From the NCBI RefSeq assembly GCF_030013205.1, contig NZ_CP122648.1: 64,000 bases of DNA. One strand, 5' to 3'. Made by a program: the position numbers. Positions 60,279 to 63,200 of the stretch are shown here, in pieces. How positions within the stretch are numbered: the stretch's first letter is position 1; every line of letters starts with the position of its first letter. This DNA comes from Escherichia coli. GTDB taxonomy: Bacteria > Pseudomonadota > Gammaproteobacteria > Enterobacterales > Enterobacteriaceae.

Positions 60279-63200
60279 TAGTGTCCTTCGTGGCTGTAGT
60301 AAAAGACCGGTAATCCCAGCTTAAGGCGTAGCGCCAGTAAACGGGCAAAAAAGCCGAATACCAGGGTGGAGATAATTACCACATCATGATTAGAAACATA
60401 GTGTTGCAGCGCGATGTACAGCACGGCGGAGGCAAATGAGACACCGGCATACAATTCTTTCTGGAATACCAGCGGGATGCGTTTACAGAACATATCGCGC
60501 AAAACGCCGCCAAATACGCCGGTCGTCACAGCTGCGACAACGGCAATGATCGGGCCGTGTCCCATATCCAGTGCAACCTGTGCGCCAATGATAGAAAAGA
60601 CCACCAGTCCGAGCGCATCGAGCACCAGAAACACTTTGCGCAGGTAAGGCATTACAGGAGCAACGATAGTGGTGAGTACTGCGGCGGTAGCGACAATAAT
60701 CACATATTCCGGGTGTTTGACCCAGCCGAGCGGATAGTGGCCCAGCAGAATATCGCGCACTGACCCTCCGCCAATTGCCGTGGCGGTCGCAATAATAATT
60801 ACGCCAAATGTATCCATGCGCCGTCGTCCGGCCGCCAGCGCCCCCGTCATGGCTTCGGCAGTAATGCCAACCAAATACAAAATGTGTAACAGCATGGTTA
60901 TCTCCCTAAAAATCTGTCTGGCAGGGTAGCGATTTGTACGCATTGTCACGATTGAGATTTTTTAAGGTGAGAGGAAATTGATAATTTTTAGTTATGTGAA
61001 ATCGTTGTTTTCTGTAGCGTAGATGCATTCTTCTGACTTCTTGTCTGAGAAAATACATAAGAAAAAGTAGGTTAAAACTGAGGGGTGGAAAAGAAAGGTG
61101 CAATGTTAGCCATTGTGTTCACTGCACCTGGACCTTGGCTTACGCATCGGGTGTCTCAATCAACAAAAAGAGTTTTTAGTTTCTGCTATTTTTTCTCTGT
61201 AATTTTTACACTGTTTTCCAACTGCTTGATGCTGACCTGCGGGGTCGGCAACTCCTCAGGCATGGTTCCGCCAAGTTCCTGAATGGTTTGCCTCACCTTG
61301 CTACCCACGTCAAAGTGTGTGGTATTAGCTTGCTGTTTTGAATTCACGCCATCCCGCTTGAGTTTTTCTTCTGTTTGGGTAGCTCGAAAGAGATTAGCCG
61401 CCAGTTCTGTTGAACCCATATGATCCAGGATCTTCTGACTCTTTTTCAGCCCCTTCCGCTGATGGATGGCTTTCTGATCTAATCCACCATACAGTCCCCG
61501 GTAACCATGATTCTGAAATATGGCGAAATCGATAGCTGTCGCTACCCCAGCTTGCTGCGCTGCCTCAACTAATTGTTTGTTATGTTCTTTCAACTCATTT
61601 CTCAGAAAAAGACGCTTTTCGTCTTCACGAAGTTGCCTGAAAGCTTCATCGTCAGCCAGCTCCTGCCGTCGGGTCTGGATAGCAAAATAAGTTTGTCCTG
61701 CCGCAATAACCGGTTTCGCAGGGTCGCCGTTTTGTACTACCAGGTAACAGGCATAGCGGGAGAGTACGATGTCTTTTAATGCTCTTTTGGCATTTGAGCC
61801 AATTTTGACCATATCGAGGATCTCCTCGAAATGGTCATCAATTGTGTGACCACTATTCAGACAAGCTTCTTTGGCGCGCGTTAATACAGGTATAAAGTGA
61901 CGATACTCTGAATAACCCAGTAGTTTTCCAAGTTGTCTTGCTGACCATTGTTCTGCTCCGTTTGCATTAATCAGCTTTATCTCTTCAAAAGGTTGATGAT
62001 GTTCGTTCATTGCCCACTCCATGTGATATCGATTGCAAGGAAAGTAAGTCTACAACTGTGTTTATATACAGTTGTAAGTATCTCACGTTCTCACTGCGCT
62101 GGGCAAAAAAACATCGCAAAATCTGGAGCAGGCACGCAAAACAGAATTGAATGTTGCGGGGAGGAAAAATGCCGCTCTGTTTGAGTGGGCGGCATTTGTG
62201 AAGGCTGAAAAGGAAGAATTGGCGTTACGAGTTATTCAATGTTCTGGATCTGCTCGCGCATCTGCTCAATCAACACTTTCAGCTCGATGGCAGAATTCGT
62301 CACTTCGGCATTGATAGATTTCGACGCAAGAGTGTTCGACTCGCGGTTGAACTCCTGCATCATAAAGTCCAGACGACGACCAACCGCTTCTTTTTTCTTC
62401 AGAATGTTGTAGGTCTCTTTGACATGCGCTTCGAGGCGGTCCAGTTCTTCGGCAACGTCAATTCGTTGTGCCAGCAGAACCAACTCCTGCTCCAGACGGT
62501 TGTTTTCCAGTTGCACCTGAGCATCTTCCAGCTTCGCGACCAGACGCTCACGTTGCCATTGCAGGATTTCCGGCATATGGGCGCGGACTTTGACCACTTC
62601 GGCGGTGACGCCTTCCAGACGCTGCTCGATCAATGCTTTCAGCGCCTGACCTTCGGTTTCGCGTGCGACGATAAAGTCGTCCAGCGTACCATCCAGCGCC
62701 GCGAGAATTTCAGCGGCAATCGCGTCGAGATCCTGCTCCTGGGCTGCCATTACGCCCGGCCAGCGCAGAATATCAACCGGATTTATTTCCCCTTCGTCGC
62801 TCTGCATTTTTACCCAGTTCGCGGCGGTTACCAGCTGTTTAGCCAGTTTTTCGTTGAGGATCAGCTCACCTTGTGCGCTAACATCTGGTTCATAGCGCAG
62901 GGTACATTCCACTTTACCGCGCGTCAGGCGAGAACGAATACGCTCGCGAACGACAGGTTCAAGGCTACGGAACTGCTCCGGCAGACGAAAGTAAGTTTCC
63001 AGATAACGCTGGTTTACCGAGCGCATTTCCCAGGTTGCGCTCCCCCATTCACCCTTGATTTCACGCCGGGCGTAGGCGGTCATACTGCGGATCATAGACG
63101 TTCCTGTTTATAAAAGGAGAGGTGGAAGGATTATAGCCATCGATGCCTTGTCAGGATAGGAATAACCGCCGGAAGTCCGTATAATGCGCAGCCACATTTG

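What the first reader, a model, noticed from the sequence alone, without database searches (positions are those of the whole stretch)
62054..62073. Canonical LexA box upstream of dinD
A perfect AACTGT-N8-ACAGTT palindrome (CTG-N10-CAG) sits at the expected operator position for the SOS-inducible dinD gene. This is a known feature and serves as a sanity check on the annotation.
Basis: partly seen in the sequence, partly recalled or inferred. Interest (0 to 1): 0.15.

Follow-up and report, generated by a model that had tools for sequence, protein, structure and literature searches.

The report
Known LexA operator of dinD
This 20-base palindrome is the well-known binding site through which the LexA repressor keeps the E. 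coli DNA-damage gene dinD switched off until DNA is damaged; it is real and ordinary, and here it is a common natural one-base variant of the textbook K-12 sequence.

Summary
Window 62054-62073 reads AACTGTGTTTATATACAGTT, which is AACTGTATATAAACACAGTT on the strand of dinD. It lies 43 nt upstream of the dinD start codon (62010, minus strand) in an E. coli yicC-dinD-yicG locus.

The motif is far beyond chance. AACTGT-N8-ACAGTT is expected 0.01 times per window. Its heterology index is 2.65, against 11.0 for the next-best site. None of 300 simulated windows came close.

It is the orthologue of the published K-12 dinD SOS box (AACTGTATATAAATACAGTT), in the same position and identical at 19 of 20 bases. 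The one difference, T to C at box position 14, is a common E. coli polymorphism. It occurs in about 22% of complete genomes, including Nissle 1917. The same base is found in the accepted lexA, yebG, polB and uvrD boxes.

K-12 literature shows that dinD is LexA-dependent.

Side observations:
- An ISKox3 element sits inside this very box in 236 complete genomes.
- Only 4 of 80 DinD homologues from other species carry a LexA box.
- Many of those homologues lie inside type I restriction-modification operons.

The parts
62054..62073 (-). LexA (SOS) box of dinD. Gene strand AACTGTATATAAACACAGTT; + strand AACTGTGTTTATATACAGTT.
   Evidence: Orthologous to the K-12 box in alignments A1 and A2. Published K-12 sequence in PMC3009722.
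62068..62071 (-). Promoter-proximal CTGT half-site on the gene strand (ACAG on the + strand).
   Evidence: Sequence. Invariant in all sampled E. coli.
62056..62059 (-). Gene-proximal ACAG half-site on the gene strand (CTGT on the + strand).
   Evidence: Sequence. Invariant in all sampled E. coli.
62060..62060 (-). The one base that differs from the K-12 operator: C on the gene strand (G on +) where K-12 has T. This is box position 14.
   Evidence: About 981 of 4428 genomes with an intact region carry the C allele (identity bands plus the sequences sampled).
62050..62077 (-). Lineage-specific extension of the palindrome to 9-10 paired bases (TTACAACTGT...ACAGTTGTAG). The scan flagged it as 'terminator-like', which I judge a false positive.
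   Evidence: 10 pairs, only 3 G-C, no real T run. (-11 kcal/mol against -7.1 for K-12).
62101..62106 (-). Candidate -35 hexamer TTGCCC (inferred only).
   Evidence: Best-scoring combination in the intergenic region and invariant in A1. It is not significant (62 of 500 shuffles reach the score) and was missed by the strict scan.
62077..62085 (-). Candidate extended -10, TGaGATACT (inferred only). It would place the transcription start near 62070, inside the box.
   Evidence: No transcription-start data could be obtained.
62017..62020 (-). Shine-Dalgarno GGAG, 6 nt before the ATG at 62010.
   Evidence: Sequence. The RefSeq start in strain 118UI maps to window 62010.
61186..62010 (-). dinD coding sequence (274 aa plus stop), the gene under control of the box.
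62163..62197 (-). Intrinsic terminator of the upstream, co-directional gene yicC (GC-rich hairpin plus U run). It separates yicC from the dinD promoter region.
   Evidence: -12.4 kcal/mol, z = -5.2. Conserved in A1.

Best explanation
This is the LexA operator (SOS box) of the E. coli dinD gene.

In undamaged cells a LexA dimer binds the 20-bp site. Each DNA-binding domain reads one CTGT half-site across the AT-rich spacer. Binding blocks RNA polymerase at the dinD promoter, which most likely overlaps or directly precedes the box.

After DNA damage, RecA filaments stimulate LexA self-cleavage, the operator is vacated and dinD is transcribed. DinD is reported to act on RecA filaments.

The box is close to consensus (heterology index about 2-3), so it should be among the tightly held operators. 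The window carries a common natural allele with one spacer base changed (T to C at position 14). I predict this weakens binding only slightly.

What is shown and what is inferred:
- Shown here: presence of the box, its statistical significance, its orthology to the K-12 box, and its conservation within E. coli.
- Shown in the K-12 literature: LexA dependence of dinD.
- Inferred: the promoter geometry and the behaviour of the C allele.
For: Sequence and statistics.

Gene identity.

Orthology with the K-12 operator: 19 of 20 bases identical and the same spacing to the ATG.

Both half-sites are invariant in 13 distinct E. coli sequences, although 4-10% of the flanking intergenic positions vary.

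Published evidence:
- The K-12 box sequence, and RT-qPCR confirmation of LexA dependence in lexA(Def) and lexA(Ind-) strains (PMC3009722).
- 9.8-fold induction by AZT, 12-fold lexA dependence, heterology index 2.2 (PMC11228462 Table 1).
- Listed among genes with a known SOS box (PMC6590174).

C at position 14 also occurs in the accepted lexA, yebG, polB and uvrD boxes, 4 of the 18 sites.

LexA boxes also precede dinD homologues in Citrobacter, Cupriavidus, Paraburkholderia and Burkholderia, with heterology index 2.9-6.3. None of 1441 background windows in the same loci reach 8.

DinD acting on RecA filaments: Uranga et al. 2011, as cited in PMC4849656 and PMC10602874.
Against: - No experiment addresses the C allele itself.
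- The promoter is not defined here. The strict sigma-70 scan finds nothing, and my best candidate is no better than 12% of shuffles.
- The transcription start could not be retrieved.
- Most DinD homologues in other Gamma- and Betaproteobacteria have no LexA box (45 of 49), so LexA control is not a property of the gene family as a whole.
Confidence: 0.95

Rival explanations
1. The operator is real, but the T-to-C change next to the ACAG half-site weakens LexA binding appreciably. In that case dinD in this lineage would be leakier, or induced earlier, than in K-12.
For: The heterology index rises from 2.14 to 2.65, or from 2.95 to 3.32 with dinD left out of the matrix. On the other strand the change puts G at position 7, where none of the 18 reference sites has G.
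Against: The rise is small, and the box remains better than the recA, sulA and lexA boxes on the same matrix. C at position 14 is found in 4 of 18 accepted boxes. The allele is carried by about 22% of E. coli genomes, so it is not a recent defect.
Confidence: 0.12
2. The palindrome acts as an RNA or DNA hairpin: a terminator or attenuator after yicC, or a 5'-UTR structure. Under this reading it is not a protein-binding operator.
For: The consensus scan flags it as terminator-like on the minus strand. The extended arms in this lineage fold at -11 kcal/mol, z = -3.4.
Against: - Only 3 of the 10 pairs are G-C, and the tail ACTTACTTTC is not a U run.
- yicC already has a strong GC-rich terminator about 100 nt upstream of the box.
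- The arm extension is absent from K-12 and most other lineages, whereas the CTGT/ACAG half-sites are invariant.
- No Rfam family matches.
- If the transcript starts near 62070, the left arm is not transcribed at all.
Confidence: 0.02
3. It is a chance AT-rich palindrome with no function.
For: The loose core CTGT-N8-ACAG appears at least once in 42% of shuffled windows.
Against: The full pattern is expected 0.01 times per window. None of 300 simulated windows reach its score. It sits at the same place as the experimentally supported K-12 operator and is conserved across E. coli.
Confidence: 0.01

Closest known systems
E. coli K-12 dinD (pcsA) SOS box, AACTGTATATAAATACAGTT (published heterology index 2.1-2.2)
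   Same: Same locus (yicC-dinD), the same 43-nt distance to the ATG, 19 of 20 bases identical and both half-sites identical.
   Different: T to C at box position 14 (window 62060). Four further substitutions in the immediate flanks lengthen the inverted repeat from 6 to 9 bases per arm.
Other near-consensus E. coli LexA boxes (umuDC and sbmC TACTGTATATAAAAACAGTA; recN; tisAB/istR)
   Same: CTGT-N8-ACAG with an AT-rich spacer and a low heterology index. A single box close to the promoter of an SOS-induced gene.
   Different: The outermost bases are A...T rather than T...A. These are unrelated genes.
Accepted LexA boxes with C at position 14 (lexA box, yebG, polB, uvrD)
   Same: They share the base that distinguishes the window's allele from K-12.
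   Different: Those boxes carry additional deviations and have a higher heterology index (3.96-8.51 on the same matrix).
LexA boxes upstream of dinD homologues in Citrobacter werkmanii (L020), Cupriavidus alkaliphilus (L082), Paraburkholderia madseniana (L059) and Burkholderia sp. (L046)
   Same: A CTGT-N8-ACAG box 25-88 nt upstream of a DinD homologue, heterology index 2.9-6.3.
   Different: The genomic contexts differ: ibpB-dinD-yidE-like in Citrobacter, and mnmE-dinD-integrase in Paraburkholderia. The box sequences and spacing differ. The proteins fall in separate parts of a rough tree, so these boxes are probably independent acquisitions or survivors of repeated loss.

Membership tests
E. 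coli-type LexA operator (SOS box) | 20-bp site with invariant CTG-N10-CAG (CTGT-N8-ACAG core) in inverted-repeat symmetry | tested here: met
   Window 62054-62073 is AACTGTGTTTATATACAGTT.
E. coli-type LexA operator (SOS box) | AT-rich spacer and overall closeness to known sites (low heterology index, in the range of accepted boxes) | tested here: met
   Heterology index 2.65 (3.32 leave-one-out) on a matrix of 18 published boxes whose own values span 0.27-9.29. None of 300 simulated windows reach it.
E. coli-type LexA operator (SOS box) | Position overlapping or adjacent to the promoter of the regulated gene | tested here: inconclusive
   The box ends 43 nt upstream of the dinD ATG, with no gene in between. 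The best candidate promoter (TTGCCC-18-TGaGATACT) puts the transcription start inside the box but is not statistically compelling. No transcription-start data were available.
E. coli-type LexA operator (SOS box) | Orthology to an experimentally supported operator | tested here: met
   It aligns with the K-12 dinD box, 19 of 20 bases identical. The K-12 box and the LexA dependence of dinD are published (PMC3009722, PMC11228462, PMC6590174).
E. coli-type LexA operator (SOS box) | Physical binding by LexA and LexA-dependent, damage-inducible expression of the downstream gene, for this allele | not testable with these tools
   Evidence exists only for the K-12 allele, from the literature.
E. coli-type LexA operator (SOS box) | Host encodes a LexA that recognises CTGT-N8-ACAG | not tested
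   lexA is not in the window. The host is E. coli by DNA identity: 4705 of 5426 complete genomes match and strain 118UI matches at 100%. All E. coli are known to have this LexA, which is established knowledge rather than something tested here.
Rho-independent terminator | G+C-rich stem followed directly by a run of U | tested here: not met
   Only 3 G-C pairs of 10, and the tail ACTTACTTTC. The true yicC terminator lies at about 62163-62197.

The most novel reading that the evidence does not exclude
LexA control is not an ancestral property of dinD. The DinD family is a horizontally mobile, defence-island-type gene. It matches the PADLOC candidate PDC-S13, and copies 63-80% identical to the E. 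coli protein are found from Chlamydiae to Bacteroidia, typically between hsdM and hsdS of type I restriction-modification operons.

On this reading the gene has been placed under a LexA operator independently in a few lineages: Escherichia, Citrobacter and Burkholderiaceae. The E. coli 'SOS gene' dinD would then be a domesticated restriction-modification accessory gene. Its reported action on RecA filaments may reflect a role in handling restriction-induced DNA damage.
Probability: 0.3. Interest if true: 0.4.

Novelty: already known. Interest (0 to 1): 0.1.

Why it matters
The scan located a textbook SOS operator at exactly the right place, which supports reading this part of the window as the E. 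coli yicC-dinD-yicG-ligB locus.

There is little new biology in the box itself. The modest added value is that natural variation at this operator offers ready-made comparisons for how operator sequence sets SOS gene timing:
- a T/C polymorphism split roughly 78:22 across E. coli
- an IS element that splits the box in 236 complete genomes

The patchy presence of LexA boxes across the widely transferred DinD family also shows that membership of the SOS regulon is specific to particular lineages.

Tried and rejected
- A search for the idealised consensus TACTG(TA)5CAGTA allowing 3 or fewer mismatches found nothing. This is because the window's box has 4 mismatches to it (K-12 has 3), not because a box is absent.
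- The strict sigma-70 scan found no promoter. My own hexamer scoring gives one best candidate, but 62 of 500 shuffles score as well, so I report it only as an inference.
- The 'terminator-like' call on the box was rejected on composition and context.
- Rfam at a permissive threshold found no RNA family in 60900-63300.
- Attempts to obtain the mapped dinD transcription start failed. Ohmori 1995 (PMC176568) and Thomason 2015 (PMC4288677) are not held. The Cappable-seq start-site table is truncated in storage and has no entry near dinD.
- I first read a sequence upstream of Morganella dinD as a decayed LexA box. The intergenic regions do not align convincingly, so I dropped that idea.
- I expected the strong tisAB/istR LexA box to be in the window, by analogy with strain 118UI. 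It is not, and the PWM scan shows dinD's box is the only strong site.
- Literature searches for 'dinD promoter' and 'PDC-S13' returned nothing useful.

Full report
**Observation**

Window 62054-62073 reads AACTGTGTTTATATACAGTT on the + strand.

- It is the only match in the 64 kb. The 12-specified-base pattern is expected 0.01 times per window, and 1 of 100 dinucleotide-preserving shuffles has a match.
- The shorter core CTGT-N8-ACAG would not be remarkable alone: 0.53 expected, and 42% of shuffles have one.
- The idealised consensus TACTG(TA)5CAGTA is not matched within 3 mismatches, because the site has 4 mismatches to it.

**Context**

The sequence is E. coli chromosome.

- A 291-nt stretch around the box matches 4705 of 5426 complete E. 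coli genomes and is 100% identical to strain 118UI. There the flanking genes are annotated dinD and yicC.
- In the window the order is ligB (+), yicG (-), dinD (-, 61186-62010), the box, yicC (-, 62232-63095), rph (+).
- The dinD product matches the NCBIfam equivalog 'DNA damage-inducible protein D' over its full length (486.6 bits; cut-off 242). Pfam sees only an N-terminal Bro-N domain.
- dinD is on the minus strand, so the box lies upstream of it. It ends 43 nt before the RefSeq ATG at 62010, which is preceded by GGAG at a 6-nt spacing.
- The mechanical ORF begins four codons earlier, at 62022.
- yicC is co-directional and ends in a strong GC-rich hairpin plus U run at about 62163-62197 (-12.4 kcal/mol, z = -5.2). 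dinD therefore needs its own promoter in the roughly 90 nt between that terminator and the box.

**Comparison with the known operator**

On the gene strand the box is AACTGTATATAAACACAGTT. K-12 MG1655 has AACTGTATATAAATACAGTT at the same place relative to dinD. That K-12 sequence is printed as the dinD motif in PMC3009722 Table 4 (ACAACTGTATATAAATACAGTTACA). The window's operator is therefore the orthologue of the published one but differs at one base: T to C at box position 14, window 62060.

I built a Lewis-type heterology-index matrix from the 18 K-12 boxes in that table.

| Matrix | K-12 dinD | Window box |
|---|---|---|
| All 18 boxes | 2.14 (published value 2.1-2.2) | 2.65 |
| dinD left out | 2.95 | 3.32 |

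- The next-best site anywhere in the window scores 11.0.
- None of 300 Markov-1 simulated windows reach 3.32; the lowest was 6.75.
- C at position 14 is present in 4 of the 18 reference boxes: lexA, yebG, polB and uvrD.

**Population view**

Both CTGT/ACAG half-sites are invariant in all 13 distinct E. coli sequences I aligned, although the surrounding intergenic DNA varies by 4-10%.

Position 14 is a two-allele polymorphism. I combined the identity bands of a 50-nt search with sequences sampled from each band.

- About 3447 genomes carry T.
- About 981 genomes carry C, roughly 22% of the 4428 genomes with an intact region. Nissle 1917 is among them.
- Exact-word searches give consistent lower bounds. 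The window-type 34-mer is found in 375 genomes, the K-12 type in 3206, and a third flank variant with the K-12 box in 154.

In the window's sub-lineage, flank substitutions extend the inverted repeat to 9 bases per arm. This lowers the predicted hairpin energy from -7.1 to -11 kcal/mol. I see no evidence that this matters. The 'terminator-like' flag from the consensus scan rests on an AT-rich stem without a U run.

**Mechanism**

The K-12 literature supports LexA control.

- dinD is listed among genes with a known SOS box (PMC6590174).
- It is induced 9.8-fold by AZT with 12-fold dependence on cleavable LexA (PMC11228462 Table 1).
- Its LexA dependence was confirmed by RT-qPCR in lexA(Def) and lexA(Ind-) strains (PMC3009722).

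The standard model is established knowledge of the SOS system. A LexA dimer sits on the box and blocks initiation, and RecA-stimulated self-cleavage of LexA relieves the block.

Promoter geometry is inferred, not shown.

- The strict sigma-70 scan finds nothing.
- My scoring picks TTGCCC (62106-62101), an 18-nt spacer, then TGaGATACT (62085-62077). This is an extended -10 that would start transcription at about 62070, inside the box.
- 62 of 500 shuffles score as well.
- I could not retrieve a mapped start site.

DinD is reported to remove or inhibit post-synaptic RecA filaments (Uranga et al. 2011, cited in PMC4849656 and PMC10602874).

**Related sequences elsewhere**

A scan of one genome per species returned 588 relatives, of which the best 80 were kept. 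They are 63-80% identical to E. coli DinD and come from very distant phyla: Chlamydiae, Bacteroidia, Chlorobi, Spirochaeta, Campylobacterales, Synergistaceae and Lentisphaerae.

I scored the 200 nt upstream of each with the same matrix.

- Only 4 of 80 have a LexA-type box with heterology index of 8 or less: Citrobacter werkmanii 4.66, Cupriavidus 2.92, Paraburkholderia 4.05 and Burkholderia 6.25.
- That is 1 of 30 Gammaproteobacteria and 3 of 19 Betaproteobacteria.
- None of 1441 background windows in the same loci reach that score.
- The box-bearing loci have unrelated contexts: HSP20-dinD-permease in Citrobacter and mnmE-dinD-integrase in Paraburkholderia.
- The box-bearing proteins that could be placed (the Citrobacter copy is truncated) fall in three separate places of a rough neighbour-joining tree.
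- Of the eight boxless loci whose neighbours I scanned, five lie next to type I restriction-modification genes; three of them (L032, L034, L081) have dinD between hsdM and hsdS.
- E. coli DinD matches the PADLOC defence-candidate model PDC-S13 at 399.8 bits, and also a DinD-HsdS fusion model.
- The link between dinD and restriction-modification loci has been mentioned in passing in the literature (PMC4996451, PMC9881135).
- Morganella keeps yicC-dinD synteny but has no box, and its intergenic DNA does not align with that of E. coli.

LexA control of dinD is thus specific to particular lineages, not a property of the family.

**An unexpected detail: an IS element inside the box**

In some E. 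coli an ISL3-family element (ISKox3) is inserted inside this operator. The sequence reads AACTGTATTTATAT | IS | ATTTATATACAGTT, and the box's spacer is duplicated as the 8-bp target-site duplication. The exact junction is present in 236 of 5426 complete genomes. This splits the two half-sites about 1.3 kb apart and separates dinD from its upstream region. The transposase points the same way as dinD. In some of these strains dinD is also frameshifted, or the yicC side is rearranged.

**Verdict**

The feature is the already known dinD SOS box, present here as a common natural one-base variant. Interest is low. Its value is as a positive control for the scan. The operator polymorphism, the IS-split operator and the patchy LexA control of a mobile, restriction-modification-associated gene family are side notes.

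Noticed in passing
L008 150-215 and 1480-1515 (E. coli strain 219); also L009 and L095. Corresponds to window 62061-62068.: An ISKox3 (ISL3-family) element is inserted inside the dinD LexA box, duplicating the spacer ATTTATAT as its 8-bp target site. The half-sites end up about 1.3 kb apart. The exact junction occurs in 236 of 5426 complete E. coli genomes, and the transposase has the same orientation as dinD.
   Followed up: partly
window 62060: The operator is polymorphic in E. coli. About 78% of genomes with an intact region have T (K-12 type) and about 22% have C (window type, including Nissle 1917). The half-sites are invariant.
   Followed up: yes
L010-L089 (DinD homologues from 80 species): DinD homologues 63-80% identical to the E. 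coli protein occur in very distant phyla, which suggests horizontal transfer. Of eight boxless loci whose neighbours were scanned, five adjoin type I restriction-modification genes (three have dinD between hsdM and hsdS). E. coli DinD matches the PADLOC candidate PDC-S13 (399.8 bits) and a DinD-HsdS fusion model.
   Followed up: partly
L020 1946-1965; L082 736-755; L059 1886-1905; L046: Only 4 of 80 DinD homologues have a LexA-type box upstream: Citrobacter, Cupriavidus, Paraburkholderia and Burkholderia. They sit in unrelated genomic contexts, and the three with full-length proteins fall in separate parts of a rough protein tree (Burkholderia and Paraburkholderia cluster together). This points to repeated gain or loss of SOS control. 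The Citrobacter copy appears frameshifted.
   Followed up: partly
window 34205-34299 (minus strand) and about 22000-34000; also 2000-4000: tRNA-SeC (selC) is flanked on its low-coordinate side by about 12 kb of low-GC DNA (36-43%). This looks like a selC-integrated genomic island. It would explain why the tisAB/istR LexA box, which lies about 60 kb from dinD in strain 118UI, is not in the window.
   Followed up: no
window 63222-63938: rph is intact here (238 aa), unlike the truncated rph-1 allele annotated in K-12 MG1655.
   Followed up: no
window 62010-62022: An in-frame ATG four codons upstream (MEWAM...) makes the mechanical ORF 278 aa. RefSeq and the GGAG spacing favour the ATG at 62010 (274 aa).
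   Followed up: partly
L007, L095, L004 (other E. coli strains): dinD is annotated as frameshifted in strains 1604D011 and 24AR0180 and is shorter in MS 85-1. In addition, 721 of 5426 complete genomes have no match to this intergenic region at all. The gene therefore seems dispensable and is decaying in some lineages.
   Followed up: no
window 2158-2177: The second-best LexA-like score in the window (heterology index 11.0, AACTGTATAACTTTAAAGGA) has a good left half-site but no CAG on the right. It lies inside what reads as coding sequence in a low-GC region, so it is probably chance.
   Followed up: no
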